This document shows positions 3,324-61,289 of a DNA stretch of 64,000 nucleotides, one piece after another (the stretch's first letter is position 1; every line of letters starts with the position of its first letter). This DNA comes from a virus. Its lineage: Duplodnaviria; Heunggongvirae; Uroviricota; Caudoviricetes. The notes under the pieces were generated by a model. It was not told the origin of the DNA, made no database searches, and worked only from the letters and a program-made list of their open reading frames with translations. The stretch is taken from IMG/VR virus record IMGVR_UViG_2737471844_000002, positions 10,565 through 74,564 of that record; one strand, written 5' to 3'. The position numbers and the translations under genes are program-made.

Positions 3324-3942
3324 AGTTAACTATCAGGCACTGCGTGAGGTGGCAGAGGCCGCGAAGGGGGATACGACGTGGCAGAACCTACAGGCTTTTC
3401 ATGCTGCGGCTACGCCGGAGGTTGTGCAGGCGTTGCTGGATGAAAACGAAAGACTGTGTCGAGATCTGATAGCTCGTAATGGTGAGATTGAAGGGCTTCG
3501 GGAGTGGGCAGAAGAACTGGAGGCACGGGAGGTGGCTTTGCCAGTAGCGTCATGCATTGTTGAAGATGGATGCATGTGTGTTGATGGGTTCAGTGAGTAT
3601 GTAGGTCACTCGCTGCCTGATGGAATGCATGAGCTTTATGCTGCCCCGCCAGCGCCCGTAGTGCCTGCATCACTGGAATCAGAGCCGGTGGCGTGGACTG
3701 ATGAAGAGGAACTGCGCGATGTCAAGCAGTATGGTCTCGGTGAGATATTTCAGTACCCGCCAGATAAATACGCAGACTCGCGTCGTGTAATCCCGCTGTA
3801 TCGCGAGCTGCCAGTGCCGGTAGTGCCGGATGAAATGTATTGGCAGGATGCGCCAGTTGAAGGCAGCAGCAAAGCTGCTGCATACGCTACAGGTTGGAAC
3901 GCTTGCCGCGCTGCCATGTTTAAAGGAAAAGGAGGTGCGTAA
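3316..3942 (+). CDS. hypothetical phage protein
   Basis: 208-aa ORF overlapping upstream stop; no recognisable domain. Confidence 0.4.
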   Translation: MSEVNYQALREVAEAAKGDTTWQNLQAFHAAATPEVVQALLDENERLCRDLIARNGEIEGLREWAEELEAREVALPVASCIVEDGCMCVDGFSEYVGHSLPDGMHELYAAPPAPVVPASLESEPVAWTDEEELRDVKQYGLGEIFQYPPDKYADSRRVIPLYRELPVPVVPDEMYWQDAPVEGSSKAAAYATGWNACRAAMFKGKGGA

Positions 3943-4312
3943 TGCGTGTCGCGTTTATCGGTTTATTACCATACCCGACTCGTTTTTGGGCTTCTGCGTT
4001 AATGACAAAGCCGCATGTCCTGATGGCTGACAGCATCATCCCTGCACCGAAACGCCGTACAGGCATTGCGGCGGCGAGACGAGCAGCAAAGAAACGCAGG
4101 AGAACAAAACGATGAAAAACCGTAAGGCAAAAATTCTGTTAGCTCGCAGAAACGGTGTTGGGGTCTGGCGATGGTTGAGGATTAGTAACAGACGAGTGAG
4201 GTTGACGGGGTGTTGCGGGGTGATGTTGTACAGCTGTTGCAAAAAGCCCAGCGCGGCGCAAAACCGCTGGAAGAATCACACTAACGCAAAGTAATTAAAT
4301 AATAACCAATAA

Positions 4313-4359
4313 CAGACCAAAACATATGTTTTGGTCTGCCAAAAGTGATGTTTTGGTCA
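4313..4359. promoter_or_regulatory. palindrome cluster (candidate operator)
   Basis: 26-bp perfect palindrome cagaccaaaacatatgttttggtctg at 4313-4338, followed by a further ccaaaag...ttttggtc inverted pair; four TTTTGGTC-like half sites in alternating orientation. Confidence 0.35.
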
Positions 4360-4361
4360 TT

Positions 4362-4640
4362 ATGAAGATTGAACAAATCGGAATGGCAGCTTTCAGGCAA
4401 CAGGCTGAAAGCGGTGGCGTGGATGAGTTCGTCGTGCAGCGGTTCAGTGGTGTGTATCACCTCTTCGCTGTGAATCGCCGCGCCGGGGTGTCCTATTTTC
4501 TACAGGAACGCCGTGGCGATTACAAGACGTGGCTGTCTCTTGACCGTGCCGCCGCGTTCCTGTCAGGGATTGGCGTTTCACGTTTTACCGTGCGTTTTGA
4601 GGATAATAAACATGCTGAAAAAGATGATCGGGGCCATTAA
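4362..4640 (+). CDS. hypothetical protein
   Basis: Internal ATG 4362 (MKIEQIG...) of track ORF 4326-4640; lies directly downstream of the palindrome cluster. Confidence 0.3.
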   Translation: MKIEQIGMAAFRQQAESGGVDEFVVQRFSGVYHLFAVNRRAGVSYFLQERRGDYKTWLSLDRAAAFLSGIGVSRFTVRFEDNKHAEKDDRGH

Positions 4641-27928: not shown

Positions 27929-28501
27929 GTGAATACAGTCGATTTATTCCGCGCCATGCTGCCGCCGGTCAGTTATGACCTGAACGGGAAATATATTTCC
28001 GCGGAGCTGACAGCCGAGGCTAACGTCATGGAGGCCGTGAAGGCCTCAGCGGCGCGCGTTCTGGCACAAATCACCCCGTTGCAGGCATCGATGACGCTGT
28101 CCGACTGGGAGCGCGTGTACGGTGTTGTCCCCCGTGAAGGGGCAACCCAACAGGAGCGGCGGCAGAACATCCTGGTAAAAATGGCGGCAACGGGCGGGCT
28201 GTCCATTCCCTATTTTAAAAATCTGGCCGCAAGCCTGGGATACACCATAACGATAACCGAACCACGAGCCTTTCGCACCGGGGTAAATCGTTGCGGTGAC
28301 CGTCTGTTTATCCCTGAAATGCGCTGGGTATGGCAGGTCAATGTTATTGGTGCAAAAACGCCGGTATACCGTTTCAGAACGGGCGCATCTGCAACAGGTG
28401 AGCCGCTGACGGCCTTTGGTGAATCCATTTTAGAAAATACCTTTAAAGACCTTAAACCGGCTTTTACAGACTGTTATTTCACGTATGAGGATAAGCAGTA
28501 A
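27929..28501 (+). CDS. tail protein (Mu gp48-like, gpI family)
   Basis: 190-aa ORF, GTG start. Confidence 0.55.
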
Positions 28502-29430
28502 TGCAGAATTTAATTCCTCCGGTGAATACGCCGGATCAATTGTTTCACGATGGTGACCCCACTCAGGGCATTGAGGGCACTATTGTTTATGCTGAACACA
28601 TGAATAATCAGCAGGGAGCCATTCGTGACCTGCAACAGGAAATTATTAATGTGCTCCGTGCGGCTGATATATCACCGGACCCGAAGAAACAAAATCAACT
28701 GCTTGATGCTATATCGCAATATGTCGGGAAAAAAGTTCCTGACGCATCATTAACGAAGAAGGGCATCGTTCAGCTCAGTAGCGCAACAGACAGTGATTCA
28801 GAAACGGAAGCAGCCACACCAAAGGCAGTAAAATCACTGGCGGAAAAAATAACAGAATTGCAGGGAGTGGCTTTACCGGTAGGTACCCCAATACCGTGGC
28901 CGTCTGATTCAGTGCCACCCGGCTATGCCTTAATGCAGGGGCAGAGCTTTGATAAAGGCTCTTACCCTAAACTTGCAGCTGCCTACCCATCCGGGATTAT
29001 CCCGGATATGCGGGGCTGGACAATTAAGGGTAAGCCTGCCAGTGGTCGTGCTGTATTGTCTCAGGAGCAGGACGGCATTAAATCACACGCCCACAGTGCC
29101 AGTGCATCCAGTACGGATTTGGGGACGAAAACCACATCGTCGTTTGACTACGGAACTAAATCAACAAATAACACAGGTGGTCATAATCACGGTGTTGGTG
29201 AAAATGTTTCTGTCAGTGCCGGCAGTGGCAAAACAGTAAATATGAGTACCGGCACCGTAAATCTTTACACCAAATCTGCTGGCGCTCATGCGCACACTGT
29301 CGGCATTGGTGCTCATGTGCACACTGTTGCTATTGGTTCACACGGACACACCGTCACTGTTAACGCTACTGGTAACGCAGAAAACACCGTCAAAAACATC
29401 GCATTTAACTATATTGTGAGGCTTGCATAA
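28501..29430 (+). CDS. tail fibre protein
   Basis: 309-aa ORF; C-terminal half is near-identical to the C-terminus of the P2-like H protein at 51456-53588, including His-x-His repeats and the [18 protein letters not shown] end. Confidence 0.7.
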
Positions 29431-30005
29431 TGACTTTTAAAATGAGCGATAAAGCACGGACCATGCGTGTATTTAATTTTCTTGAAGATACAAAAGAATT
29501 TATCGGCAGTGGTGACGCTTATATACCGCCTCATACCGGATTACCCGCAAACTGTACGGATATTGTACCGCCGGAAATTCCCGAAGGTTTTACGGCAATG
29601 TTTGATACTGCTGACAATTCATGGCGTCTGGTAGAAGACCATCGGGGGGAAACAGTTTATTCAACGGAAACCGGAAATGCAGTCCCGATATCTGAACTGG
29701 GGGAACTTCCTGAAAATGTCACATTTATTGCACCAGACGGAGAATACCAGCGCTGGGATGGCAGTCAGTGGGTGACGGATGAAGAGGCGAAGCGTGATGC
29801 GCTGATTAATCAGGCGGCAGAAAAGAAAACCAGCCTGCTGAAACAGACTGGAGAACAAATCGCAATCTTACAGGATGCTGTTGATTTTGGTGAAGCAACA
29901 CCAGAGGAACAGGAGCAACTGACAGCCCTCAGAAAATTACGAATAAAGTTAAATCGTATTCAACCGGAAAATGCACCAGATATCGACTGGTCAGACTTTG
30001 AATAA
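29430..30005 (+). CDS. tail fibre assembly protein
   Basis: 191-aa ORF; homologous to the P2-like G product at 53588-54187 (shared [14 protein letters not shown] motif). Confidence 0.7.
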   Translation: MTFKMSDKARTMRVFNFLEDTKEFIGSGDAYIPPHTGLPANCTDIVPPEIPEGFTAMFDTADNSWRLVEDHRGETVYSTETGNAVPISELGELPENVTFIAPDGEYQRWDGSQWVTDEEAKRDALINQAAEKKTSLLKQTGEQIAILQDAVDFGEATPEEQEQLTALRKLRIKLNRIQPENAPDIDWSDFE

Positions 30006-30050: not shown

Positions 30051-31475
30051 ATGTCTGTATTAATTTCAGGGGCGCTGATTAATGGCGCTGGCGTTCCGAT
30101 GGCGGAATGCAAAATTTATTTAGATGCACTGGTTAATACCAGTGAAGTGGTCACTGAGTCATTTGCGGTTATTGAAACCGATGCGGCGGGACAGTATGCC
30201 TTTGAAGCACAAAAAGGCAAATACACCGTACACATCAAGCAAAAGAACGGCCCCAAGTGCTGCGTGGGTGACATTTCGGTTTACGACGACTCAAAGCCCG
30301 GCACGCTGAACGACTTTCTGACTGCCCTTGATGAAAGCGATTTAAAGCCGGATGTAGTGAAACGCTTTGAGGAACTGGCGCAACAGGCACAGCAGAGCGC
30401 GGAAGCCGCCGCTGGCAGCGAACAACAGGCAGGACAACACGCCACTGATGCACAGCAGATTAAGGCCGACTGTCAGGCGCTGGCGAAAGACGTACAGCAG
30501 AACGCCGACGCGGTTGCGGAGGGTAAACAACAGGTCGAAAATCTGGTCTCACAGGTTGAGAATGCCGCCGAGGAGGTAAAAAAGGACGCTGAAGCTGCTA
30601 AACAGGCCGCATCTGATGCAGAGCATGTCAGGGAGGATATTGACACCGCGTTATCTGCGACACTGAAAACGGCGAATCGTTTATCAGAGCTGGCTGATGA
30701 AGGTGAAGAGGCTCAGCAGGAATCCCGTGATAATCTTGGACTGAAAAGCGCTGCCACAATGACGCCACAGAGCGACATTCGTGACCGGACTGAAGGTCGT
30801 CTGGCGACACCTGGCGCATTTGGTTTTGGGCATATTTTTTTGCCCGCAGAGCGGATCCGTTTTAACACAGAGGATGATTTTCTGTCCTGGGTAAGGAATG
30901 CGACGCCGGGTGAATATTTTGTTGAGGGTGGCAGTAAAATCATATCCGGAGGTGTGTTGTTTAACGGGGTGGTCAGCATCCGGTGGGTTGAGGCACGCAA
31001 TAATCCACCGGAACCGCGATATACATCAAAGGCCATTATTTTCTACGGTATCAATGGCGATGTTTATTACAGCCGCTACTGGACAACAGGTAATGGTTAT
31101 CTGACTGGCTGGGAAAATCTGAAAATTACCTCACAGGACATTATCTCTCTTCTGTCCGGTATTGCTCCCGGTACCACGGACGGCTGGTACGGTGCAGGCA
31201 GTCTTGTACTGGCGGCTTATAACGGTAAGGGAGACGCAGACACCGACCGCCGGATAAAACGCGGTTACAGCTATCCGGGGTCACGCCTGAGCGCGGTTGA
31301 ATTTATGTGTCACGGCACGACCGGTAGCGGGGTTGGATATAACGGCAGCGTTTCCGTATATGTGCGGAGTTCTGGTGGTGGTATGCCGGGGTCATATCGG
31401 GCACTGTCAGGTGATGGGCTCGGGTCTGCCGGGTCAGCCAGTGTCATGATTGGTTTGTTCATACGTATTGCGTAG
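30051..31475 (+). CDS. side tail fibre protein (Phage_fiber_N / Stf-like)
   Basis: 474-aa ORF; N-terminus resembles lambdoid side-tail-fibre N domains, followed by an Ala/Gln-rich coiled segment. Confidence 0.65.
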   Translation: MSVLISGALINGAGVPMAECKIYLDALVNTSEVVTESFAVIETDAAGQYAFEAQKGKYTVHIKQKNGPKCCVGDISVYDDSKPGTLNDFLTALDESDLKPDVVKRFEELAQQAQQSAEAAAGSEQQAGQHATDAQQIKADCQALAKDVQQNADAVAEGKQQVENLVSQVENAAEEVKKDAEAAKQAASDAEHVREDIDTALSATLKTANRLSELADEGEEAQQESRDNLGLKSAATMTPQSDIRDRTEGRLATPGAFGFGHIFLPAERIRFNTEDDFLSWVRNATPGEYFVEGGSKIISGGVLFNGVVSIRWVEARNNPPEPRYTSKAIIFYGINGDVYYSRYWTTGNGYLTGWENLKITSQDIISLLSGIAPGTTDGWYGAGSLVLAAYNGKGDADTDRRIKRGYSYPGSRLSAVEFMCHGTTGSGVGYNGSVSVYVRSSGGGMPGSYRALSGDGLGSAGSASVMIGLFIRIA

Positions 31476-31482
31476 GTGTTTT

Positions 31483-32049
31483 ATGGAAATAAAACGCATC
31501 GAAAATGCGCGTTATCTTGAAAATGGCGCGATTGACTGCGGGGTGTTGTTTGATGGCATGGATGAACCGGTTCCGTATACGGCAACTGCCACGGATACAG
31601 CAGAGACAGGGCAGCGAGTCTGGCAGGAGCTGCAAAGTGGGAGATGGGGAGAAATAACGCCGTTCACCGTCACGCCAGAGATGCTGGAAGCAGCAAAAGC
31701 AGCCAAACGCCGGGAAATTGAAGCATGGCGCACAGAACAGGAGGCGCAGCCATTCATTTTTGAATGGAACGGCCATAGCTGGAACGGGGGACCGGATTCT
31801 ATGGCCCGTCTTTACCCGGTGGTGATGTCAGCAAAATCAGTCACGGCACGGAAATCTATGGTATGGGGTGATGCGGAAAATCAGCAGGTAAAGTTGTCAA
31901 TGCAACAACTGGATGAACTGCTTACTGCAATGGTTCAGGCGCAGGTCGATCGCAATGACGAGATTTATCGCCGTCAGCGGGAGATGAAGGAAACACTGGC
32001 GGGGCTGGATGACCTGAACACCATCAGAAGTCTGCCCATCAGTGAATAA
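31483..32049 (+). CDS. tail fibre assembly protein (Tfa-like)
   Basis: ATG 31483 within track ORF 31450-32049; Tfa-like sequence character. Confidence 0.6.
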   Translation: MEIKRIENARYLENGAIDCGVLFDGMDEPVPYTATATDTAETGQRVWQELQSGRWGEITPFTVTPEMLEAAKAAKRREIEAWRTEQEAQPFIFEWNGHSWNGGPDSMARLYPVVMSAKSVTARKSMVWGDAENQQVKLSMQQLDELLTAMVQAQVDRNDEIYRRQREMKETLAGLDDLNTIRSLPISE

Positions 32050-32142: not shown

Positions 32143-32183
32143 AAATAGTCCAGAAAAAATCGCGAAGTTACACACGCGGCGCG

Positions 32184-34727
32184 GTGGATGAAGCCATGGC
32201 CTCGCTGCGCCTGCTGCCGTCCTATCTGCGCGATCCGCTTATTCGCCACCTCTCCTTCCTTCGCAAAAAACAGGAAGCCGATCGCCGGAAAGGCAAAAAG
32301 AGCTGGCAGGCGGAACGCTATGCACGCGGAACCCTGCGCAAAATATTCGAACGTCTGGATCGCACTGACGGACGCTGGCTGACACCGGGTTATCGCTCCC
32401 TTGCCGGACGCGAACGCCTGGACGATTTGCTTTACCTGCCGCAGCTCAACAAACACCAGATACAGACGTTGGCCACCATGACGGCGGCGATGTTCAGCAG
32501 CACCTTCGAAAAGCTCTGCGATGGCTTTGGCGCCAGAGATGGCGAGCTGACCATGGATGTAATGTTGAAGGCTTACCGGATGCTGGCTCGTATCGCATTA
32601 CGCCTGCACATCATGCCGCCACATTACGAAGCCCTGAACAAGAGCGAACCGGATACGGAACTGCTGCCGGGCGCAATCCTTCGCCTGACCTGTGCGGACT
32701 GGTGGAAACGCAAACTGTGGCTGTTACGTTGCGAGTGGAGAGAAGAACAACTCCGCGCCGCCTGTCTGGTTTCCAGAAAAACATCGCCTTATCTGAGCCA
32801 GGACGCGTTAAGCGAGTTTCGCGCACAGCGCGAGAAAACACGCGATTTCCTGAAAAGTTTCATGCTGGAAAACGAAGACGGGTTCACGATTGATCTCGAG
32901 ACAGTGTATTACGCGGGAGTAAGTAACCCGGTTCACCGTAAGGCAGAAATGATGGCCACCATGAAGGGGCTGGAACTTCTGGCCGAAGCCCGTGGTGACA
33001 AAGCGGTGTTTCTGACTGTCACCTGCCCGTCAAAATACCACGCAACAACGGAGAACGGTCATCCGAATCCCAAATGGAACGGGGCCACCATGCGCGACTC
33101 CAGCGATTACCTGGTTAACACGTTTTTTGCGGCGGTCCGCAAGAAACTGAACCGCGACGGCCTGCGCTGGTATGGCATCCGCACGGTGGAGCCTCACCAT
33201 GACGGCACCGTGCACTGGCATATGATGGTCTTTGCCCATCCGGAAGAAATCGACACCATTGTGTCCCACACCCGCGATATTGCCATTCAGGAAGATCGTC
33301 ACGAGCTGGGCGATGATATTACTCCGCGCTTTAAGGCGGAGTATGTCGACGGCTCAAAAGGCACGCCAACCAGCTACATCGCCACCTACATCGGAAAAAA
33401 CCTGGACAGCCGCGCCGTGGATGGCATCGCCCCGAAAACAGGCAAACCACGCGTTGACCACGAAACCGGAAAATCAATGGCCGAGAGCGTGGAGCGCGCC
33501 ATCGGCTGGGCGCGCCTTCACCGGGTCCGCCAGTTCCAGTTCTTTGGCATCCCCTCCCGTCAGGTGTGGCGTGAACTGCGCCGCCTTGCCAGCCAGATGG
33601 CACGCAACCCGGAAGGCCCGCAACGGCTGAAGGACGACGCAATGGATGCGGTACTCGCTGCCGCTGATGCCGGGTGTTTTGCCTCCTACATTGAAAAACA
33701 GGGTGGCGTACTTGTTCCACGCAAGGACTACCTGATTCGCACCGCCTACGACCTCGCAGATGAGCTGAACGATTACGGCGAACAGAGCGTACAGATTTAC
33801 GGGATCTGGTCACCACTCATCGGGGAATCCTCCCGTGTGTGCACGCACCCGGATAACTGGAAGCTGGTAAGACGTAAACCGGAAGCGGAAGACAGCGCCC
33901 GCGAAAATTGTTTTGACCTTCAGGGCGGCCCTGCCGCCCCTTGGACTCGTGGCAATAACTGTCCCCGTGTACAGGAAACGGACAACAACGGGACAGAACA
34001 GCCGGAAGAACGGCCAGCACCGTGGCCGCAGCTTCCTGACGGCGTTGATGTGGATGAATGGATGCGCTCACTGAAACGGCACGAACGCCGGGCGCTGATG
34101 CGTTCGCTGCGTGACAAACAGGCCAAAAACAGCAGTGATGAAATGCAGAACTGGACACAGAGCCGCAAACAGCCACAGCCTTTGCCTGATAAACACGAAT
34201 TACTCGCTAAAGAATGGCGGGAGTCTGCCGAATCTCTCGGCCTGCATATCGGTGAACAGCAGATGCAGCACCTGTTACGGGGCGGCAGCCTGTACGTTGA
34301 CGGCAGCATCATTGCACCGCAGGGATTTGAAATTGTACGCAAACCGGATACCCGCCCGGACAGCCGAATCACGCAGCTCTGGCAGCGCCTGAGCCGTAAT
34401 CACGGCGTAAGCAGCACGGAGATCCGCCATAACCCGGTCGCCAGCTATCTGGCACAGCTCGGGGCATCAGACCCCGAAGCCGCCGCACGCCTGGCATCCA
34501 CACTTCAGCAGGACCAGAACACCATGAAAACACCCGTTACCGTGCTTTCTGACATGCTGCGCGCCATTCGTGACGCAGAGCACGCACAGAGAATCAGTGA
34601 AACCACTGAACACGCCCGCCGCAAAGCAGACCTGCTGCGGGGTAGCCTGACCAGTGGCAACAAAAAACAGACAGAAACGGGATTCACAAATCCCGCAAAT
34701 GAGCAAAAAACGCGCCGCGATATATGA
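32184..34727 (+). CDS. A: P2-type replication initiation endonuclease gpA
   Basis: 847-aa ORF (GTG 32184 or ATG 32196); contains the rolling-circle initiator signatures VEPHHDGTVHWHMM and YIATYIGKNLD (paired Tyr). Confidence 0.8.
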   Translation: MDEAMASLRLLPSYLRDPLIRHLSFLRKKQEADRRKGKKSWQAERYARGTLRKIFERLDRTDGRWLTPGYRSLAGRERLDDLLYLPQLNKHQIQTLATMTAAMFSSTFEKLCDGFGARDGELTMDVMLKAYRMLARIALRLHIMPPHYEALNKSEPDTELLPGAILRLTCADWWKRKLWLLRCEWREEQLRAACLVSRKTSPYLSQDALSEFRAQREKTRDFLKSFMLENEDGFTIDLETVYYAGVSNPVHRKAEMMATMKGLELLAEARGDKAVFLTVTCPSKYHATTENGHPNPKWNGATMRDSSDYLVNTFFAAVRKKLNRDGLRWYGIRTVEPHHDGTVHWHMMVFAHPEEIDTIVSHTRDIAIQEDRHELGDDITPRFKAEYVDGSKGTPTSYIATYIGKNLDSRAVDGIAPKTGKPRVDHETGKSMAESVERAIGWARLHRVRQFQFFGIPSRQVWRELRRLASQMARNPEGPQRLKDDAMDAVLAAADAGCFASYIEKQGGVLVPRKDYLIRTAYDLADELNDYGEQSVQIYGIWSPLIGESSRVCTHPDNWKLVRRKPEAEDSARENCFDLQGGPAAPWTRGNNCPRVQETDNNGTEQPEERPAPWPQLPDGVDVDEWMRSLKRHERRALMRSLRDKQAKNSSDEMQNWTQSRKQPQPLPDKHELLAKEWRESAESLGLHIGEQQMQHLLRGGSLYVDGSIIAPQGFEIVRKPDTRPDSRITQLWQRLSRNHGVSSTEIRHNPVASYLAQLGASDPEAAARLASTLQQDQNTMKTPVTVLSDMLRAIRDAEHAQRISETTEHARRKADLLRGSLTSGNKKQTETGFTNPANEQKTRRDI

Positions 34728-36457: not shown

Positions 36458-37540
36458 ATGGTAAACGTGAGGGAGGATGAACTTTTCAAACTCATCGAGC
36501 AAGGCATCAAAGGCAACGCAAATGCATTTACACTCCTATGCAGAAAGATGATTAACAACATCCGTAAAAATGATGAGGCTTTAGCTTCTAAGCTGGCTTC
36601 GTTAGTTGCTGAGGGAACAGTATTACGTGGGGCATCTAGTAAGGCTCCTATGCCTGTGGATGGAGACTCCAGACGAAACCTTTTGCAGGAAACATCTGTC
36701 AACGCAATTGTTGAAGAACCTGTATGGAATACGGATATCTCAAAGAAGCTGGAGTCAATTGTTAACGAAAGAGAGAATGCGGTTTCTTTGTTCAAAGCTG
36801 GTCTTGAACCTGTGAAGACGGTTTTACTTTCTGGCCCGCCAGGCGTAGGCAAAACAATGTCCGCACATTGGCTTGCTGCAAAGTTAAATTTACCTCTTTT
36901 AACATTGGATCTCTCATCTGTAATGAGTTCTCTTTTGGGAAAAACAGGTAATAATATTAAATCCGTTATGGATTATGCCAAAGAGAAACCATGTGTCCTT
37001 TTGCTTGATGAATTTGATGCTGTTGCAAAAAGACGTGATGATGACAGGGACGTTGGAGAATTAAAACGTTTAGTTACTGTACTCCTACAGACCATAGATG
37101 AGTGGCCAGCGACCTCGCTTCTTGTTGCTGCGACTAATCACCCTGATATCTTAGATCCGGCTGTTTGGCGTCGATTTGAGCACATCCTTAAATTTAATAT
37201 GCCATCAGTAGAACTGATAGATAGATATTTAGTCAATCATAATATTGAACCTGAACTATCTAAAAAACTTGCACCATTATTAGATGGCATGTCCTTTGCC
37301 ATCATTAACCGTATTTTGAATTTCTCCAAAAAGAATGAGGTACTTAGAAATATTCCATTTGAAAGCTCATTAATAGAAGCCGTAATTACGGAGAGGGTTT
37401 CATTGGATGAGTTTAGCGATAATGATCTCAATATAATTAAATATCATTTTGACGGTTTTTCAAATAGGAAGATAGCTGAATTAGTTGGTGTTTCACATCC
37501 AACAATCGCGAATAAATTACAAAAGTGGGGGATTAAATGA
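36458..37540 (+). CDS. AAA+ ATPase with C-terminal HTH domain
   Basis: 360-aa ORF; Walker A GPPGVGKT, Walker B LLLDEFD, sensor/Arg-finger region ATNHPDILDPAVWRRFE; C-terminal GFSNRKIAELVGVSHPTIANKLQKWG helix-turn-helix; AT-rich. Confidence 0.8.
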   Translation: MVNVREDELFKLIEQGIKGNANAFTLLCRKMINNIRKNDEALASKLASLVAEGTVLRGASSKAPMPVDGDSRRNLLQETSVNAIVEEPVWNTDISKKLESIVNERENAVSLFKAGLEPVKTVLLSGPPGVGKTMSAHWLAAKLNLPLLTLDLSSVMSSLLGKTGNNIKSVMDYAKEKPCVLLLDEFDAVAKRRDDDRDVGELKRLVTVLLQTIDEWPATSLLVAATNHPDILDPAVWRRFEHILKFNMPSVELIDRYLVNHNIEPELSKKLAPLLDGMSFAIINRILNFSKKNEVLRNIPFESSLIEAVITERVSLDEFSDNDLNIIKYHFDGFSNRKIAELVGVSHPTIANKLQKWGIK

Positions 37541-39741
37541 TGGAAAGGAACTTACTTTTAGGTAACGGTCATGTTCTGACAAAAAAGGAACCTTTGCCTA
37601 AAGGAAGGGATGGTAAGCGCTATCCCTATACTCTTGAAGAAGTAAGGGAGCATTTAAACCCAGAGATTGATACTTTACTCTCACGCTTTCGCAGTTTGGA
37701 TGATGCGGCTAAGCCAAGGGGGGAGAGTGTATTCAATTTAACTTTACACCCAGCGTTTTTGGGTAAAAGCTACTTTCCGGAAGGATTGCTTAGAGCGACA
37801 GGTTTACGGGATGTCGGTAGCCGTCAGGTAATCATTCGCCCACGGAAAGCGGCACGTCAGTGCGATCAGAATAAGGACTTAGTAACGGCGCAACTGTTTG
37901 TTAGCGGTGATGATGATGCCGTTATAAGATTTAAGGAAATTTTAAATTCCCCTACAGCTCCGAAGGGCGTACAAAAGGATTTGATCGAAATTGAAAGTGT
38001 TAGCTTTTTTGAAGGAAAAGAGAGAGCACGCAATTTTGAGCATGCGAAAAGTGATTTGATAAAATTTGAAGTGGTTCTTCATGCTGGGGTTGAAGACGAT
38101 GATATCGTTAAAGCCTATATTAGCTATGCGGCACAATATGATGTCTCTGTTGATTACAAAAGTAGAATCCAAGTTGGTGGGCTGACTTTCATCGTTGCAC
38201 ACGCGCGACCTGAAGATATGAAAAAAACACTCGATTTTTCATTAATCCGCGTTGTGCGGCCGATGCCGTCTCTCAGGTGTACTCAGCCGAACATTGTCAG
38301 AAAGTTATCTAATATAGTTACACCGGAGCTCCCTAATTCTAAAGCTGTTCTTGAATCCGAACGTATTGCCATTTTTGATGGTGGCTTGGGGACAGCTGAC
38401 TTGAGTAATTGGGTTACGGAATACGTGTATCCAGACACCAAAGAAACAAGCGGATTATTATTGCAGCACGGTAATGAAGTGACATCCACTTTCTTATTCG
38501 GACGTGTCGAGGAAAATGCACCTTCTTTTAAAAGACCGTTTATGAATGTAGATCATTATAGAGTTCTTTCACCGACATCAGGTGACAATGGCAATTGGGA
38601 TTTATTTGATGTCCTTAAGAAAATACAGTCCGTTCTTGATAGTGGTGACTATAAGTTCGCTAATCTAAGTATTGGTCCTCATCTTCCAATTGGTGATGAT
38701 GAGGTTCATGTATGGACTGCTGTTTTAGACCAAATCTGTGCTAAGCATGGGATATTACTTACTGTTGCTGTTGGGAATGATGGCAATGAGGACGGTGATG
38801 CAGCGAGAATACAACCTCCTTCCGATATGGTAAACGCGCTAGCGATTGGTGCTGCTGATCGTAGCGGTGAAAAATGGGGGCGGGCACCATATAGCTGTAT
38901 TGGGCCAGGCAGAAGCCCCGGATTCGTTAAACCTGATGGTGTTATTTTTGGTGGAAGCGACGACGAGCCTTTTTACACTTACAACCCTCTGCTTGGTTCT
39001 ATAGTTGGAGTTCAAGGAACCAGTTATGCCTCTCCATTAGCATTGAGAACGGCCGCTGGAGTTGCGGCTCTATCAGGAACTCCATTGAACACCATTGCAT
39101 TGAAAGCGTTGCTTGTTCATCATGCTGAAACATCAAGAAAATATTCGCGTGAACATATCGGTTGGGGACGGTTTAGTGAGGATCCTAACGTTTTAATCGA
39201 TTGTCCAAATGATACTGCTACAGTAATTTACTATGGTTCATTAGCAAAAAATAAATATTTAAGGGCACCGATCCCATTCCCTGATGTTCCCTTTGACGAA
39301 GCATTTGAGCTTACCGCTACTTTATGCATTCAAACCCCAGTAGATCCTGAACATTCAGTAAACTATACAAGGGCCGGTATGCAGGTAACTTTCCGCCCAA
39401 GATTCGGCCTTGACGATACCGATACAGATGATTTCTTTGGTCAAAAAAGCCAGTATAAGACTGAAAGGGAGTGTAGGAGTGAAGGTCATAAATGGGAAAC
39501 TTGTTTGCACAGAAGCAAAAAGTTCAGTGCTGATACATTATTAAGCGATCCAGTTTTTGATATACGGTATCATGCCCGAGATTCTTCGCGCCATGTTAAG
39601 GGAGTTTCAGCCCCTGATATGCAATATGCGATGGTAATAAGCGTAAGGGTAAAAGACTTTGATTTATATAATGTTATTCGCCAGCGATATACAATTCTGA
39701 ATCCTATTCAACTGCGCACACAAATTTCTCTCGACACGTAA
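37537..39741 (+). CDS. S8 subtilisin-like serine protease with N- and C-terminal extensions
   Basis: 734-aa ORF with ATGA overlap to the ATPase gene; catalytic triad motifs IAIFDGGLG (Asp codon 38377-38379), LQHGNEV (His codon 38467-38469), GTSYASP (Ser codon 39022-39024) in canonical D-H-S order and spacing. Confidence 0.8.
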   Translation: MMERNLLLGNGHVLTKKEPLPKGRDGKRYPYTLEEVREHLNPEIDTLLSRFRSLDDAAKPRGESVFNLTLHPAFLGKSYFPEGLLRATGLRDVGSRQVIIRPRKAARQCDQNKDLVTAQLFVSGDDDAVIRFKEILNSPTAPKGVQKDLIEIESVSFFEGKERARNFEHAKSDLIKFEVVLHAGVEDDDIVKAYISYAAQYDVSVDYKSRIQVGGLTFIVAHARPEDMKKTLDFSLIRVVRPMPSLRCTQPNIVRKLSNIVTPELPNSKAVLESERIAIFDGGLGTADLSNWVTEYVYPDTKETSGLLLQHGNEVTSTFLFGRVEENAPSFKRPFMNVDHYRVLSPTSGDNGNWDLFDVLKKIQSVLDSGDYKFANLSIGPHLPIGDDEVHVWTAVLDQICAKHGILLTVAVGNDGNEDGDAARIQPPSDMVNALAIGAADRSGEKWGRAPYSCIGPGRSPGFVKPDGVIFGGSDDEPFYTYNPLLGSIVGVQGTSYASPLALRTAAGVAALSGTPLNTIALKALLVHHAETSRKYSREHIGWGRFSEDPNVLIDCPNDTATVIYYGSLAKNKYLRAPIPFPDVPFDEAFELTATLCIQTPVDPEHSVNYTRAGMQVTFRPRFGLDDTDTDDFFGQKSQYKTERECRSEGHKWETCLHRSKKFSADTLLSDPVFDIRYHARDSSRHVKGVSAPDMQYAMVISVRVKDFDLYNVIRQRYTILNPIQLRTQISLDT

Positions 39742-51455: not shown

Positions 51456-53588
51456 ATGAGTACCACAACACGTAAATTTAAAACCGTTATCACCGATACG
51501 GGTGCCAAAAAATTAGCTCAGGCAGCCGCGCCAGATGGTAAGCCTGTCCGCCTGACTCATATGGCCGTGGGCGACGGTGGCGGTACATTGCCCACACCAG
51601 ACAGTAAGCAGACCCGTCTGGTGCATGAGGTGTGGCGACATACTGTTAATCGCGTCATCCTGGACGCAACACATCAGAACCGCATTATTGCAGAGCTGGT
51701 TATTCCTCCAGAAACGGGCGGATTCTGGATCCGGGAAATTGGTGTGTTTGATGAGCACGGCGATTTAATCGCGGTGGGCAATACTGCCGAAAGTTACAAG
51801 CCAGCCGTTGCCGAAGGGTCCGGTCGTGCACAAACATTTCGCACCATTCTGACCGTATCCAGCACTGCCACTGTGGCGCTTACCGTGGATAACACCATGG
51901 TGATGGCCACAGTGGATTACGTGGATAACAAACTGAAAGAGCATGAACAGTCACGACGTCACCCGGATGCCTCGCTGACCGCAAAAGGCTTTGTTCAACT
52001 CAGTAGCGCCACTAACAGCGATTCTGAAACGCTGGCTGCAACGCCGAAAGCGGTTAAGGTCGCGTATGATCTTGCTAACGGAAAATATACAGCGCAGGAT
52101 GCCACAACAGCGCGAAAAGGCCTTGTCCAGCTTAGTAGTGCAACCAACAGTACATCTGAAACGCTGGCGGCAACATCAAATGCAGTAAAAGCTGCCTATG
52201 ACAATGCTGAAAAACGTCTGCAGAAAGCTAAGAATGGTGAGGATATCTCTGACAAAGACACCTTTACGAAAAATATCGGTGCCTGCCGTGCATATAGTGC
52301 AGAGCTGAATATTGGTGGAGATAGTGAAGCATGGACAACTGCGCAGTTGATTTTTTGGCTAGAGAGTCAGGGGGCATTTAACCATCCTTACTGGATGTGC
52401 AAAGGCTCATGGGCTTATGCAAGTAATAAGGTCATTACAGATACAGGTTGCGGAAATATTTGTCTTGCAGGTGCTGTTGTGGAAGTTATTGGCACCCGCG
52501 GCGCAATGACCATACGCATTACCACACCGAGTACATCCAGCGGTGAAGGCATCCCTAATGCTCAATTTACTTATATTAATCATGGTGATGCTTATGCTCC
52601 TGGCTGGCGAAGGGACTATAACTCCAGGAATAAGCCAACAGCATCAGAGATCGGGGCGTTACCGTCAGATGGGACAGCAGTATCGTCAGTTAATCTGGCT
52701 TCAAAAGGTCGGCTGACCGCCCTGACAGATAATATGCAGGGGGCCACAGGTCTGGAGTTATACGAGGCGTATAACAACGGATATCCAACAGCGTATGGAA
52801 ATATCATTCACCTGAAAGGGATGACAGCCGTTGGCGAAGGCGAATTACTCATCGGCTGGAGTGGTATAAGCGGTGCTCATGCTCCGGCATTTATTCGTTC
52901 ACGACGGGATACGACCGACGCAAACTGGTCGCCGTGGGCGCAGCTTTACACCTCGGCTCATCCTCCTGAAGAGTTTTATCCAGTCGGTGCACCGATTCCG
53001 TGGCCATCAGATACCGTTCCGTCTGGTTATGCCCTGATGCAGGGGCAGACTTTTGACAAATCTGCATACCCGAAACTTGCAGTCGCTTATCCGTCAGGCG
53101 TGATCCCTGATATGCGTGGCTGGACTATCAAGGGCAAACCTGCCAGTGGTCGTGCCGTATTGTCTCAGGAACAGGACGGCATTAAATCGCACACCCACAG
53201 CGCCAGCGCATCCAGTACTGATTTGGGGACGAAAACCACATCGTCGTTTGATTACGGTACTAAAACGACCAGTTCATTTGATTACGGCACAAAAACCACA
53301 AATAGCGCAGGAGCTCATTCACACAATATACCTGTTGGTCACACTGGCGCGGGGAATGGTGTATCAGCCGGTTATAACGCTGCGTTAGGTACTGGTACCA
53401 CGTCGAGCGCAGGAGGGCATGCTCACAATGTATATATCGGTGCCCATAACCACACTATCGGCATTGGTGCTCATGCCCATTCTGTCATTATTGGTCCCCA
53501 CGGACACACCATCACCGTTAATGCTACGGGGAACGCAGAAAACACCGTAAAAAACATCGCATTTAACTATATTGTGAGGCTTGCATAA
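51456..53588 (+). CDS. H: tail fibre protein gpH
   Basis: 710-aa ORF; P2 gpH-like N-terminus ([21 protein letters not shown]...); internal tandem repeats; C-terminal tip shared with the Mu-like fibre at 28501-29430. Confidence 0.85.
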
Positions 53589-54187
53589 TGACATTCAGAA
53601 TGAGTGAACAATCACGGACCATAAAAATTTATAATCTGCTGGTCGGAACCAATGAATTTATTGGTGAAGGTGATGCATACATTCCACCTCATACAGGTCT
53701 GCCTGCAAATAGTACTGATATTGCTCCGCCAGATATTCCAGCTGGCTTCGTGGCTGTTTTCAACAGTGATGGGGCGTCCTGGCATCTCGTTGAAGATCAT
53801 CGTGGTAAAACGGTTTATGACGTGGCTTCCGGCGACGCGTTATTTATTTCTGAACTCGGTCCGTTACCGGAAAATGTCACCTGGTTGTCGCCGGAAGGGG
53901 AATATCAGAAGTGGAACGGCATAGCCTGGGTGAAGGATACGGAAGCAGAAAAAGTGTTCCGGATACGGGAGGCGGAAGAAACAAAAAACAGCCTCATGCA
54001 GGTAGCCAGTGAGCATATTTCGCCACTTCAAGATGCCGTAGATTTGAATATTGCAACAGAGGAAGAAACATCGTTACTGGTGGCATGGAAGAAGTATCGA
54101 GTGCTGCTGAACCGTGTTGATACATCAAGAGCACCGGATATTGAGTGGCCAGCTTCCCCAGTGGAATCAAGGAGTAAACAAGCATAA
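53588..54187 (+). CDS. G: tail fibre assembly protein gpG
   Basis: 199-aa ORF; ATGA coupling to H. Confidence 0.8.
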
Positions 54188-54251
54188 AGGCTTTCATTTC
54201 AAACCATTGTAGTCCAGTTTTTTGTATAGTACCCTGCTCATTACGGATGAC

Positions 54252-55460
54252 ATGTGTGATTTGGAATTTCAGGGTACCATTATGAATGTTATTTCATCGT
54301 TAAAACAGCTTAACAGACAGCGAAATATTAAAACAAAAAAGATAAAGACGAAGGCCAGACTGGCATTTCTAAAAATGCGATACAGAAGGAAAACATCATT
54401 ACAGCCGGATAGTTATAAAACAGTGTGCATTTTCATGCACATGCAAGCCATTGGTGACGGCATCGTTACCTCAGGGTTTATTAAACAACTTCAAAAATCC
54501 GGTATGGTGGTATATGTGATAGCACCTTCAAGAGTATCATTCCTCTTTACTGACATTGTTGGCGTGGATGCCTTTATATCTTACGAGAAAAATAAATTTA
54601 ACGAACTAAAAGCAAAGATAAAAAAACTGAATGTAGATCTTGTTGTTGACTTCTCAAATTTTGATAACACAGCGATAACCAGATTGCAAACACTACATTT
54701 ACTTAGACCTAAACACTCTATCTGTTTTAATCATCCTGCCGTAACTATTTTTGATACAAATATAATCGATAATCGTTCCATTCACACATCTGAAAGAATG
54801 AAAAAAGTTTTATCTTTACTAAAGATAAAAAATAATAATTATGCTGCAGCGCTTAATTTTGACAACAAAATATATGAACCAGCAAATATTGTTGCAAATG
54901 AATTCAGGAAAAAAAACAAAAAATTAGTTATATTTAACCCTTATGGCTCTCAGAATAGCAGAACCTTATCTGATGAACAGATAAAAAAAGTACTAGCTTA
55001 CCTTAATAACCTTAAGGGATATCACACAATAGTTTTTAATATGGGAAAACAGATTAATCACAATGGATTGGATAATGTGTCTCTATCTCCATTTTCTGAT
55101 GCCGGATGTTCATTTGCATTGGTTCGCCATGCTGATTTTGTTATAACTGTAGATACTGCCATTGTACATTTAGCCAGTGCATTAAACATTAGACAATACT
55201 GTATATATAATAACAGAATGCATGAAGGAAAATTCGAAAATAATATTGTGTGGGGGCCAAACAGCAAATTAGCGACTCAACTCACCACATCCGAACATCT
55301 AAGGTCTGAAGGGGGCGACGATATGCATAAATTCGACATAATGATCTTAATTAATGCTATCAAACAAGATTTGACAAACGATATACCGAATTACCACTCG
55401 GATTTAGGTTGTAAAAATAGTTCCAGAAACCCAGAATTAGAAAGTAGCAATTCTTTATAA
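54252..55460 (+). CDS. GT9-like glycosyltransferase (heptosyltransferase fold), moron
   Basis: Track ORF begins at TTG 54222; ATG 54252 or 54282 more likely; strongly AT-rich; C-terminal VDTAIVHLASALN and central FNPYGSQNSRTL motifs resemble WaaC/WaaF-type LPS heptosyltransferases. Confidence 0.55.
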   Translation: MCDLEFQGTIMNVISSLKQLNRQRNIKTKKIKTKARLAFLKMRYRRKTSLQPDSYKTVCIFMHMQAIGDGIVTSGFIKQLQKSGMVVYVIAPSRVSFLFTDIVGVDAFISYEKNKFNELKAKIKKLNVDLVVDFSNFDNTAITRLQTLHLLRPKHSICFNHPAVTIFDTNIIDNRSIHTSERMKKVLSLLKIKNNNYAAALNFDNKIYEPANIVANEFRKKNKKLVIFNPYGSQNSRTLSDEQIKKVLAYLNNLKGYHTIVFNMGKQINHNGLDNVSLSPFSDAGCSFALVRHADFVITVDTAIVHLASALNIRQYCIYNNRMHEGKFENNIVWGPNSKLATQLTTSEHLRSEGGDDMHKFDIMILINAIKQDLTNDIPNYHSDLGCKNSSRNPELESSNSL

Positions 55461-55556: not shown

Positions 55557-56051
55557 TCAGAACAGTCCTTTAACTGAACTGGCCGCGCTGTTAAGAGATG
55601 ATGTCACCTTATCTTTGAAGCCGGACAGCATATCGCTGAACGATGAGGATTGCAGGCGCTCCCGCAAATCCTCATCACAGCGTTCAAGGGTCAGTGAAAA
55701 TTCTATCTTTTTCGCCTTACCGTAGCGATCAAACTCGGAACGGGTCGTATTCGTTCCGGTCAGGACATACATGCCGTAAATCAGCCCGACACCATCAATC
55801 AAAGGCCAGGGTCGTCCTGTATACGCCTGCGTGGTCAGCAGCGACAGCGACACTTCGCCACCTGTAATTTCAGGATAAAGCACACCAGAAAGCACGATGC
55901 GATCATCACCTGCACCGATATACTGCCAGCTTGCTGAACGGTTAACGCGTTCATTTTTCACATGCCGCCAGCTTTTGTTTTGCTGTAACTGCTGATGCGG
56001 CAGCGTGCGCAGCTCAAAAACAAACATGCCGTAGATCATCATCATGGCCAT
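55557..56051 (-). CDS. U: tail protein gpU
   Basis: 164-aa ORF on the minus strand; P2 gpU-like size. Confidence 0.75.
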   Translation of the reverse strand: MAMMMIYGMFVFELRTLPHQQLQQNKSWRHVKNERVNRSASWQYIGAGDDRIVLSGVLYPEITGGEVSLSLLTTQAYTGRPWPLIDGVGLIYGMYVLTGTNTTRSEFDRYGKAKKIEFSLTLERCDEDLRERLQSSSFSDMLSGFKDKVTSSLNSAASSVKGLF

Positions 56052-56057
56052 GACTCC

Positions 56058-58901: not shown

Positions 58902-59088
58902 GCCAGCTAACCACTTCGCCGGGCGTCATCATGAAGATTTCGGCGGGCGACCAGTTAAAAATAACGGCAATATCTGCCACAAAGTCTTCTATGTGCTCAA
59001 AGCACACAACCGTGATCAGGCTTCCGTCGCCTGTTCGTTCTTCCCGCCAGAGTCCGCACCGCTCAAAAAATTTACGGCAACCACACAT
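58852..59088 (-). CDS. E-prime frame of tail chaperone (expressed as E+E-prime by -1 frameshift)
   Basis: ORF in the -1 frame relative to E, overlapping the E 3-prime end and the T start; a slippery heptamer lies in the overlap. Confidence 0.55.
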   Translation of the reverse strand: MCGCRKFFERCGLWREERTGDGSLITVVCFEHIEDFVADIAVIFNWSPAEIFMMTPGEVVSWRERAALRSGNADNEDS

Positions 59089-59381
59089 AACTGAATAAAG
59101 TCACTGGATGCCATTTTTTTGATCGTCACTTCATCCAGTCGCGGTGATGTCACGCGTGACAGCAGAGTAAACATGGATTCCGCTTTCAGATTCAGCACAT
59201 CAGACAGCGACAAATCTCGCAGAGATCCAGCCTGCTCAATAGCCCCGGTAATCTCCACATACGTGATTTTTTCGCCGCCTCGCTCAATTGGTTGGGTAAG
59301 TTTTACACCACGTTCACTGGTTTCTTTCACAGTGTCAGCAACTACCGTGTTTTCGGTATCGATGTTTTTCGTCTCTTTCAT
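59016..59381 (-). CDS. E: tail assembly chaperone gpE
   Basis: 121-aa ORF between FII and T on the minus strand. Confidence 0.6.
   Translation of the reverse strand: MKETKNIDTENTVVADTVKETSERGVKLTQPIERGGEKITYVEITGAIEQAGSLRDLSLSDVLNLKAESMFTLLSRVTSPRLDEVTIKKMASSDFIQLCVVAVNFLSGADSGGKNEQATEA
59034..59040 (-). other. programmed -1 frameshift slippery heptamer T_TTT_TTG
   Basis: On the coding (minus) strand the E frame reads aaT TTT TTG agc (N F L S); shifting -1 gives TTT TTT GAG (F F E), which matches the KFFE start of the E-prime frame. Confidence 0.55.
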
Positions 59382-59435
59382 CAGGAAATTCCTTTCAGTC
59401 AGAGGCGACGCACTGCGCCGCCTGCATATTACTTA

Positions 59436-61132: not shown

Positions 61133-61289
61133 AGCTTCAGCCCCTTGTATCCGTTAAATGATTCGGCAACAATCATCACCCACCACGCGCGTAATCTCAC
61201 CCCTGCGCCATTCTCCCGCCACGGCGACAACAAAAAGCAGTAACCCCCTCCGCACGCACATGCGACCATGCCGCACAGGGAGGGAACAG

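What the first reader, a model, noticed from the sequence alone, without database searches (positions are those of the whole stretch)
28501..30005. Mu-like and P2-like phages share a near-identical tail-fibre tip and assembly-protein module
The C-terminal roughly 190 residues of the Mu-like fibre (28501-29430) and of P2-like H (51456-53588) are almost the same sequence ([83 protein letters not shown] ... [18 protein letters not shown]). The DNA is near-identical over the last ~90 nt through the fibre stop and the assembly-gene start (compare 29341-29432 with 53491-53590) and similar across several hundred nt upstream. The downstream assembly genes are homologous but more diverged. Two unrelated co-resident phages thus appear to have exchanged a receptor-binding module and probably target the same receptor. 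The repeats are also substrates for recombination between the prophages. The His-x-His repeats ([16 protein letters not shown]...) resemble the metal-coordinating motifs of T4-type fibre tips. The [10 protein letters not shown] unit is present three times in H and twice in the Mu-like fibre.
Basis: seen in the sequence. Interest (0 to 1): 0.6.

Follow-up and report, generated by a model that had tools for sequence, protein, structure and literature searches.

The report
Shared T4/lambda-type tail-fibre tip module
Two different prophages in this E. coli stretch each carry a version of the widespread tail-fibre tip and helper-protein cassette known from phages T4 and lambda; this is ordinary phage mosaicism, not a recent swap between the two neighbours.

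Summary
The similarity is real, contiguous and far beyond chance, but it is not near-identical. The fibre tips share 65% of residues over 205 aa (E 2e-83). The assembly proteins share 57%. The DNA is 70.6% identical over 844 nt. Only the last ~90 nt of the fibre genes approach identity, with a 43-nt exact run.

Both tips are homologues of the T4 gp37 receptor-binding tip (PDB 2XGF, E 1e-74), followed by a lambda-Tfa-type chaperone gene. Canonical P2 H and Mu S lack this tip.

The two copies are not each other's closest relatives. The P2-like tip is 95-97% identical to fibres of P1-like phages, and its Tfa is 92% identical to lambda Tfa. The Mu-like tip is about equally distant (64-69%) from every family member compared. 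Synonymous divergence in the conserved knob is near saturation (dS ~1.1).

The segment that aligns with gp37's receptor-contacting tip subdomain is unrelated between the copies (2/11). It also differs between sister Mu-like prophages. A shared receptor is therefore unsupported.

This RBP family (>200 phages) and fibre-gene transfer among unrelated phages are already published. Matches to the module occur in ~3,900-4,400 of 5,426 complete E. coli genomes. Verdict: ordinary and already known.

The parts
28501..29430 (+). Tail fibre of the Mu-like prophage (309 aa). It has an N-terminal Mu S-like anchor, one Phage_fiber_2 repeat, and a T4 gp37-type knob and needle tip.
   Evidence: ORF. Pfam Phage_fiber_2 (aa 83-114) and Collar (aa 128-175). 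N-terminus 40% identical to Mu S aa 47-141. PDB 2XGF gp37 tip E 1e-74.
28876..29190 (+). Conserved knob (gp37 D10 equivalent) and descending stem of the Mu-like fibre, with HxH motifs SHAHS and GHNHG.
   Evidence: 61/72 identical to the P2-like knob. 82% nt identity to 52980-53269. dS 1.09 and dN 0.05.
29191..29283 (+). Variable tip cassette of the Mu-like fibre (aa 231-261, between the second and third HxH). It is the positional equivalent of the gp37 tip subdomain.
   Evidence: 2/11 identity to the P2-like equivalent. Replaced by unrelated, longer sequence in sister Mu-like prophages STEC316 and STEC346; homology to STEC316 breaks at 29190 and resumes at 29287.
29284..29430 (+). Ascending stem (AHAHT, AHVHT, SHGHT) and invariant C-terminus ...[18 protein letters not shown].
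   Evidence: Alignment. Last 17 aa identical in both copies and in lambda.
29392..29434 (+). 43-nt run identical to 53550-53592. It spans the fibre 3' end, a GAGG Shine-Dalgarno-like motif, and the TAATG stop/start overlap with tfa.
   Evidence: The same junction is conserved in lambda, JL22, Ro157c2YLVW and PhiR30_1.
29430..30005 (+). Tail-fibre assembly chaperone (Tfa) of the Mu-like prophage, 191 aa.
   Evidence: Pfam Caudo_TAP 5.5e-33. phrog_105 7e-83. 54-57% identical to all the other Tfa proteins compared and 28% to T4 gp38.
51456..53588 (+). P2-like fibre H (710 aa). The N-terminal 254 aa are P2 H-like, followed by a distinct shaft and a T4 gp37-type tip (aa 509-710).
   Evidence: Pfam Phage_tail_fib, Phage_fiber_2 x2 and Collar. 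72% identical to P2 H aa 4-251, with no similarity beyond that. Tip 95-97% identical to JL22 and Ro157c2YLVW.
53232..53301 (+). 30-nt tandem repeat (2.3 copies) encoding the (G)[10 protein letters not shown] units of the descending stem.
   Evidence: Lambda also has the extra unit; T4, the Mu-like fibre, SEN5 and Fels-1 do not.
53325..53414 (+). Variable tip cassette of H (aa 624-653, between AHSHN and GHAHN).
   Evidence: Unrelated to the Mu-like cassette. The aligned tip-equivalent columns are identical (11/11) to JL22 and 10/11 to Ro157c2YLVW.
53588..54187 (+). Tail-fibre assembly chaperone of the P2-like prophage (199 aa), lambda Tfa type.
   Evidence: Caudo_TAP 2.4e-44. 91.7% identical to lambda Tfa and 57% to the Mu-like Tfa.

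Best explanation
Both loci are independent members of the widely disseminated T4-gp37/lambda-Stf receptor-binding tip plus Tfa chaperone cassette. Each is grafted onto a chassis-specific N-terminal anchor: Mu S-like in one and P2 H-like in the other.

Mechanism, inferred from homology to the solved gp37 tip:
- The fibre trimerises.
- The collar/knob is followed by a six-stranded needle.
- The descending and ascending strands of the needle each carry HxH motifs that coordinate metal ions along the axis. Five sites are predicted in the Mu-like fibre and six in H, against seven in T4.
- The short segment at the hairpin turn forms the distal pole that touches the receptor, either an LPS core sugar or a porin such as OmpC.
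- The downstream tfa gene is translationally coupled through a TAATG overlap and supplies the trimerisation chaperone.

The conserved flanks, especially the 3' junction, are shared across the whole family. They allow cassette replacement by recombination within the phage gene pool. The two copies here descend from different lineages of that pool and have different tip cassettes, so they probably have different specificities.
For: Shown here:
- Homology to PDB 2XGF at E 1e-74.
- HxH motifs in register with gp37's seven.
- Caudo_TAP chaperone genes immediately downstream.
- P2 H and Mu S themselves end in a different C-terminal domain.
- The N-termini match their own chassis.
- The P2-like tip is 95-97% identical to Punavirus fibres and its Tfa is 91.7% identical to lambda Tfa.
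- The Mu-like tip is equidistant from all relatives, with bit scores of 245-257.
- Knob dS is 1.09 and dN is 0.05.
- The identical Mu-like fibre is found in 7 other E. coli assemblies at different insertion sites.
- The tip cassette alone is replaced in sister prophages STEC316 and STEC346.
- Junction conservation is family-wide.

From the literature:
- gp37 residues 932-959 bind LPS and OmpC (PMC6957217).
- A family of more than 200 phages with divergence centred on that segment, and PhiNP ORF6 shown to be the RBP (PMC9659904).
- Lambda Stf shares the gp37 tip and binds OmpC (PMC12617516).
Against: - Metal binding, trimer formation and chaperone dependence are inferred from homology and were not measured.
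- The tip cassettes here (about 30 aa) are much shorter than the region between the corresponding HxH motifs in gp37. The gp37 tip subdomain may therefore be largely absent, and receptor contacts could lie elsewhere on the needle.
- Lower dS in the last 43 codons (0.35) could reflect some more recent homogenisation at the 3' end. That has not been separated from nucleotide-level selection.
Confidence: 0.88

Rival explanations
1. The two co-resident prophages directly exchanged the tip and tfa module, or gene-converted each other, in this host lineage.
For: There is a 43-nt exact run across the fibre/tfa junction and 93% identity over the last 90 nt. dS falls to 0.26-0.35 at the 3' end. The copies are physically close, 24.1 kb apart in direct orientation.
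Against: - Overall DNA identity is 70.6% and knob dS is 1.09.
- Each copy has equal or much closer relatives elsewhere.
- The Mu-like prophage carries the identical fibre at seven other insertion sites.
- The junction run is as long or longer against PhiR30_1 (53 nt) and JL22 (50 nt).
Confidence: 0.03
2. Despite their divergence, both fibres recognise the same receptor, for example OmpC or the same LPS core sugar, which would make the two phages functionally redundant in host range.
For: The family's characterised members use a narrow receptor set: OmpC and LPS glucose for T4, OmpC for lambda Stf, and LPS Glc-II for PhiNP. The knob and stems are conserved.
Against: The segment at the gp37 receptor-contact position is unrelated in sequence (2/11). 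The same segment is the part exchanged among sister Mu-like prophages. It is also where published family alignments diverge.
Confidence: 0.15
3. The similarity is an artefact of low-complexity Gly/His/Thr-rich repeats rather than common ancestry.
For: The stem is repeat-rich, with HxH motifs and [10 protein letters not shown] units.
Against: The best-conserved block is the non-repetitive knob at 61/72. E-values are 2e-83 for protein and 8e-119 for DNA. The non-repetitive Tfa proteins are also homologous, at 57% and E 5e-82.
Confidence: 0.01

Closest known systems
T4 gp37 distal receptor-binding tip (PDB 2XGF) with chaperone gp38
   Same: The last ~190-200 aa are homologous (E 1e-74; 64-66% identity). 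They share the knob, HxH motifs on both stem strands, the invariant C-terminus and a chaperone gene immediately downstream.
   Different: There are 5 or 6 HxH motifs instead of 7. The central cassette is much shorter and unrelated to gp37 932-959. The chaperone is lambda Tfa type, only 26-28% identical to gp38. The N-terminal anchors are Mu- or P2-type, and there is no 1026-aa shaft.
Lambda (Ur-lambda) side tail fibre Stf (orf-314) and Tfa
   Same: The tip architecture is the same. The P2-like Tfa is 91.7% identical to lambda Tfa. The junction DNA is nearly identical, and lambda also has the extra [10 protein letters not shown] unit.
   Different: Lambda has 8 HxH motifs and a larger central insert. 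Stf attaches to a siphovirus tail through a different N-terminus. The Mu-like Tfa is only 56% identical to lambda Tfa.
Citrobacter phage PhiNP ORF6/ORF5 and the 'T4- and lambda-based RBP family' (Magaziner & Salmond 2022, PMC9659904)
   Same: A short fibre (282 aa) sits on a Mu-type tail module (DNA-circularisation protein, gp48 homologue) and is followed by tfa. It aligns over nearly its whole length with the 309-aa Mu-like fibre at 52% identity, E 1e-99. The published family has more than 200 phages, with divergence centred on the gp37 specificity segment.
   Different: PhiNP lacks the Phage_fiber_2 repeat and has a different tip cassette. Its receptor (LPS Glc-II) cannot be transferred to the window fibres.
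Punavirus (P1-like) fibres of phages JL22 and vB_EcoM-Ro157c2YLVW
   Same: Their tips are 95-97% identical to the P2-like H tip over about 207-214 aa, with identical or near-identical tip-equivalent residues. Their Tfa proteins are 89-90% identical.
   Different: The N-terminal and shaft regions and the phage chassis are entirely different.
P2 H/G and Mu S/U mosaicism (Haggard-Ljungquist, Halling & Calendar 1992, J Bacteriol 174:1462; reference seen, content from my own knowledge)
   Same: This is the classic demonstration that unrelated phages share fibre C-termini and assembly genes through horizontal transfer. The N-terminal anchors here match P2 H (72%) and Mu S (40%).
   Different: Canonical P2 H and Mu S end in a different C-terminal domain (...NGTWYNV). 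The Mu-like prophage here has no invertible G segment.

Membership tests
T4 gp37 / lambda Stf-type receptor-binding tip | Sequence homology across the distal ~200 aa to gp37 811-1026 | tested here: met
   phmmer against the PDB: 2XGF E 1e-74 for the Mu-like fibre. BLASTP 64% and 66% identity over 215-216 aa for the two fibres.
T4 gp37 / lambda Stf-type receptor-binding tip | HxH motifs on both descending and ascending stem strands, in register with gp37 | tested here: met
   There are 5 motifs (2 descending, 3 ascending) in the Mu-like fibre and 6 in H. T4 has 7 and lambda has 8 in the same alignment.
T4 gp37 / lambda Stf-type receptor-binding tip | Hypervariable insert at the position of the gp37 tip subdomain, flanked by conserved stems | tested here: met
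   Tip-equivalent identity is 2/11 between the copies, while the flanks are conserved. The cassette alone is replaced in sister prophages.
T4 gp37 / lambda Stf-type receptor-binding tip | Trimeric needle with octahedrally coordinated iron | not testable with these tools
   Inferred only from homology to 2XGF. No structure or metal analysis was done.
T4 gp37 / lambda Stf-type receptor-binding tip | Binds OmpC and/or LPS core | not testable with these tools
   Needs adsorption assays. The cassettes differ from every characterised member compared.
Lambda Tfa / Caudo_TAP tail-fibre assembly chaperone | PF02413 match above the gathering score, and a gene immediately downstream of the fibre gene | tested here: met
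   114.3 and 151.1 bits against a cut-off of 22.1. The start codon overlaps the fibre stop codon as TAATG.
P2 gpH fibre (Peduoviridae) | N-terminal tail-collar fibre domain (PF12571) homologous to P2 H | tested here: met
   PF12571 6e-54. 72% identity to P2 H aa 4-251.
P2 gpH fibre (Peduoviridae) | P2 H-type C-terminal receptor-binding domain | tested here: not met
   No significant similarity beyond aa 254. P2 H ends in ...NGTWYNVAQV, not the HxH needle.
Mu gpS/gpU with invertible G segment | Mu S-type constant N-terminus | tested here: met
   40% identity over aa 44-111 against Mu S 47-141, E 3e-14. The fibre follows a gp48 homologue.
Mu gpS/gpU with invertible G segment | Alternative S'/U' genes on the opposite strand, flanked by inverted repeats and a Gin invertase | tested here: not met
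   No inverted repeats of at least 25 nt in 28000-62000. The region from 30051 to 32049 encodes a second fibre and a DUF4376 protein on the same strand. The prophage ends at 32172.

The most novel reading that the evidence does not exclude
The least ordinary reading that the evidence still allows has two parts.

First, the ~60-90 nt fibre 3' end plus tfa start may be kept near-identical at the nucleotide level across Mu-like, P2-like, P1-like and lambdoid phages. Its dS is 0.26-0.35, against ~1.1 in the knob. That would fit a dedicated recombination linker that lets co-resident prophages reshuffle fibre and chaperone genes.

Second, the Mu-like fibre, together with Fels-1 and SEN5, may represent a minimal 'headless needle' subclass. 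These have five metal sites and no globular tip subdomain, so their mode of receptor contact would differ from T4's.
Probability: 0.2. Interest if true: 0.35.

Novelty: already known. Interest (0 to 1): 0.12.

Why it matters
It matters little beyond annotation. The result assigns both fibres to a structurally characterised RBP family and predicts which ~30-residue cassette sets specificity. That is useful for host-range prediction or fibre engineering, and P2 H-gp37 chimeras have already been built on purpose (PMC9594776). It also cautions against reading shared fibre tips in one genome as evidence of local exchange or a shared receptor. Matches to these modules occur in 3,866-4,431 of 5,426 complete E. 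coli genomes, usually at one or two places and at up to nine.

Tried and rejected
- Low-complexity artefact. Rejected because the best-conserved block is the non-repetitive knob and the Tfa proteins are also homologous.
- Recent exchange or gene conversion between the two neighbours. Rejected on nearest-neighbour comparisons, dS, and the invariance of the Mu-like fibre across seven other insertion sites.
- A solved structure for the Tfa. The sequence search of the PDB found nothing at E <= 1.
- Reading the 1992 P2 tail-fibre paper (PMC206541). It is not held, so it is cited only from a reference list and from my own knowledge.
- Two paper searches failed on term format.
- The alternate-frame ORFs 28949-29239 and 53116-53388 resemble each other only because the underlying DNA is homologous. 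They are not treated as genes.
- Structure prediction was not run. A monomer model of an intertwined trimer would add little to an E 1e-74 match to a solved structure.
- The apparent inversion of the P2-like FI-U block was considered as a possible rearrangement. It matches the normal Senquatrovirus (SEN5) gene order.

Full report
**Context**

The window holds two prophages.
- Positions 1-32172 are the late region of a Mu-like transposable phage. The evidence is Portal_Mu, Mu F, gpT major head, sheath, DNA-circularisation protein, gpP-like hub, and gp45-48 homologues.
- From 32173 onward lies a P2-like (Peduoviridae) prophage. The evidence is replication protein GPA, portal, terminase, P2-family capsid, baseplate J, gpU, sheath and gpD.
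- Window 18501-39430 is 100% identical to contig JUDM01000010.1 of assembly GCA_000798595.1.
- Where the same Mu-like prophage sits next to chromosomal DNA in another assembly, those flanks are 100% identical to E. coli.

**Checking the observation**

- The fibre C-termini align contiguously, Mu-like aa 126-309 against H aa 509-710. Identity is 134/205 (65%) with 24 gap columns, E 2e-83.
- The downstream assembly proteins are 57% identical over 187 aa, E 5e-82.
- At the DNA level one alignment covers 28872-29660 against 52975-53818 at 70.6% identity over 844 nt, E 8e-119.

The similarity is therefore real, contiguous and far beyond chance. It is not 'near-identical'. A 30-column scan shows three zones:
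- 75-97% identity in 28872-29137;
- an indel-ridden zone from about 29138 to 29281;
- 84/90 identity in the last 90 nt, falling to 55-75% inside tfa.

The longest exact runs are 43 nt (29392-29434 = 53550-53592) and 32 nt (29116-29147 = 53220-53251).

The exact [10 protein letters not shown] unit occurs twice in H and once in the Mu-like fibre, each followed by a degenerate copy. The extra unit in H is a 30-nt tandem repeat at 53232-53301.

**What the module is**

A sequence search of the PDB with the Mu-like fibre gives the T4 gp37 receptor-binding tip (2XGF) at E 1e-74. It gives only weak N-terminal matches to Mu S.

Both downstream genes are Caudo_TAP (lambda Tfa) family chaperones.

Canonical P2 H and Mu S do not carry this tip; they end in a different domain. 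Each window fibre is therefore a mosaic:
- The N-terminus of H is 72% identical to P2 H aa 4-251, with nothing shared beyond that.
- The N-terminus of the Mu-like fibre is 40% identical to Mu S aa 47-141.
- Both C-termini are of the T4/lambda type.

I aligned nine tips (the two window copies, T4, lambda orf-314, JL22, Ro157c2YLVW, PhiR30_1, SEN5 and Fels-1). I mapped them onto the gp37 subdomains given in PMC6957217: stem 882-931 and 960-1009, and tip 932-959, which binds LPS and OmpC. Identity between the two window copies by block is as follows.

| Block | Identical / aligned |
|---|---|
| Knob | 61/72 |
| Descending stem | 31/60 |
| Tip-equivalent | 2/11 |
| Ascending stem | 25/50 |
| C-terminus | 17/17 |

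HxH motifs number 5 in the Mu-like fibre, 6 in H, 7 in T4 and 8 in lambda. T4's seven motifs equal the number of iron ions I recall being reported for the 2XGF structure.

**Were they exchanged between these two prophages? The evidence says no.**
1. The P2-like tip is 95-97% identical to the fibres of the P1-like phages JL22 and Ro157c2YLVW. Its Tfa is 91.7% identical to lambda Tfa.
2. The Mu-like tip scores alike against Fels-1 (257 bits), lambda (254), the co-resident H (254), SEN5 (253) and T4 (245). Its Tfa is 54-57% identical to the lambda, P2-like, P1-like, PhiR30_1, SEN5 and Fels-1 Tfa proteins.
3. In the 95-codon knob and descending-stem block, dS is 1.09 and dN is 0.05. This is long divergence under purifying selection.
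4. The same Mu-like prophage occurs in seven other E. coli assemblies, at least 99.66% identical over 13.7 kb and with the identical 309-aa fibre. It ends at window 32172 in all of them and then runs into different chromosomal loci. The module travels with the Mu-like phage.
5. The near-identical junction is a property of the whole family. The Mu-like copy shares exact runs of 53 nt with PhiR30_1, 50 nt with JL22 and 37 nt with lambda, against 43 nt with its neighbour. The lower dS at the 3' end (0.26-0.35) is therefore a family-wide feature. It could come from nucleotide-level constraint, since the GAGG motif and the TAATG overlap imply translational coupling, or from recurrent recombination. 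It is not evidence for a local event.

**Same receptor?**

The segment aligned with the gp37 receptor-contacting subdomain is unrelated between the two fibres.

Sister Mu-like prophages show what varies. In E. coli STEC316 and STEC346 the N-terminus, knob and descending stem are kept (97% and 85% nt identity), and so are the ascending stem and tfa (96% and 90%). The cassette between the second and third HxH motifs is different and longer.

Published alignments of this family also diverge at that segment (PMC9659904). A shared receptor is unsupported, though it is not excluded. Characterised members use OmpC and/or LPS glucose.

**Recombination substrate**

The repeats are direct and 24.1 kb apart. 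Their only exact runs are 43 and 32 nt, within 70-82% identical DNA. From general knowledge, this is barely above the minimal length that RecA-dependent recombination can use efficiently, and it is opposed by mismatch repair. A chromosomal crossover would delete the Mu-like right end and the P2-like replication and head genes. That is a route to decay, not a productive exchange.

**How it most likely works** (inferred from homology to gp37 and lambda Stf/Tfa)
- Each fibre trimerises with the help of its translationally coupled Tfa.
- It anchors by its chassis-specific N-terminus.
- It presents a metal-stapled needle whose hairpin cassette contacts an outer-membrane receptor.

**Comparison with what is known**

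This is the RBP family described by Magaziner & Salmond 2022 (PMC9659904). It covers more than 200 phages, including T4, lambda, SEN5 and PhiNP, each with a conserved chaperone gene next to the RBP gene.

PhiNP ORF6 was shown there to be the RBP. It is a 282-aa fibre on a Mu-type tail module and is 52% identical over nearly its whole length to the window's Mu-like fibre.

Horizontal transfer of fibre genes among P2, Mu, P1, lambda and T-even phages has been textbook material since Haggard-Ljungquist et al. 1992 (reference seen; content from my own knowledge).

Megablast matches to these modules occur in 3,866-4,431 of 5,426 complete E. coli genomes. The median is one to two places per genome and the maximum is nine. 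Finding two in one genome is expected.

**Verdict**

The finding is a real homology that has been over-read. The feature is ordinary and already known.

Noticed in passing
window 32150-32200 (junction at 32172/32173): The Mu-like prophage ends in ...CGCGAAGTTACA at 32172 and is inserted 254 nt inside the P2-like replication gene A. An uninterrupted relative in E. coli PEC148 has the full 2859-nt gene, and homology to the window starts at its nucleotide 254. So this is a nested prophage, and the P2-like element has probably lost replication competence. The left end and the target duplication lie outside the window.
   Followed up: yes
window 30051-32049: The Mu-like prophage encodes a second complete fibre (474 aa, with a lambda Stf/StfR-type 'prophage tail fibre N-terminal' domain PF08400) and a DUF4376 protein. 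Both are on the same strand, directly after the first fibre and tfa. There is no invertase or inverted repeats, so it may carry two fibre sets rather than a Mu-style G-segment switch. The arrangement is conserved in STEC316 and STEC346.
   Followed up: partly
window 36458-39741: An AAA ATPase (360 aa) and an S8 subtilase (734 aa) match the IetA/IetS anti-phage defence pair (PADLOC 3.6e-89 and 6.6e-41). They sit in a low-GC (0.36-0.44) island between the P2-like A/ParM genes and the portal gene.
   Followed up: partly
window 54222-55460: A low-GC (0.30-0.40) ORF of 412 aa with a weak glycosyltransferase family 9 (heptosyltransferase) match lies between the P2-like tfa and gpU, at the position of P2 fun(Z). 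It could be an LPS-modifying lysogenic-conversion moron, which would be relevant to receptors of LPS-binding fibres.
   Followed up: no
window 55557-62399: The P2-like tail genes U, T, E, FII and FI lie on the minus strand, and D lies on the plus strand divergent from FI. This differs from P2 itself, but the part seen in Salmonella phage SEN5 (Senquatrovirus), with U and the tape-measure gene on the minus strand after G, matches it.
   Followed up: partly
L020 2501-3537 and L021 2501-3489 (E. coli STEC316 and STEC346): RefSeq annotates the Mu-like fibre genes in these genomes as incomplete pseudogene fragments. Frame 0 nevertheless reads through as uninterrupted ORFs of about 345 and 329 aa, so this is probably an annotation artefact caused by the mosaic tip cassette.
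   Followed up: partly
L013 13685-20930 (GCA_021749545.1): In another E. coli assembly the same Mu-like prophage abuts the lysis and packaging genes of a P22-like prophage. This is a second case of the transposable phage landing in or next to another prophage.
   Followed up: no
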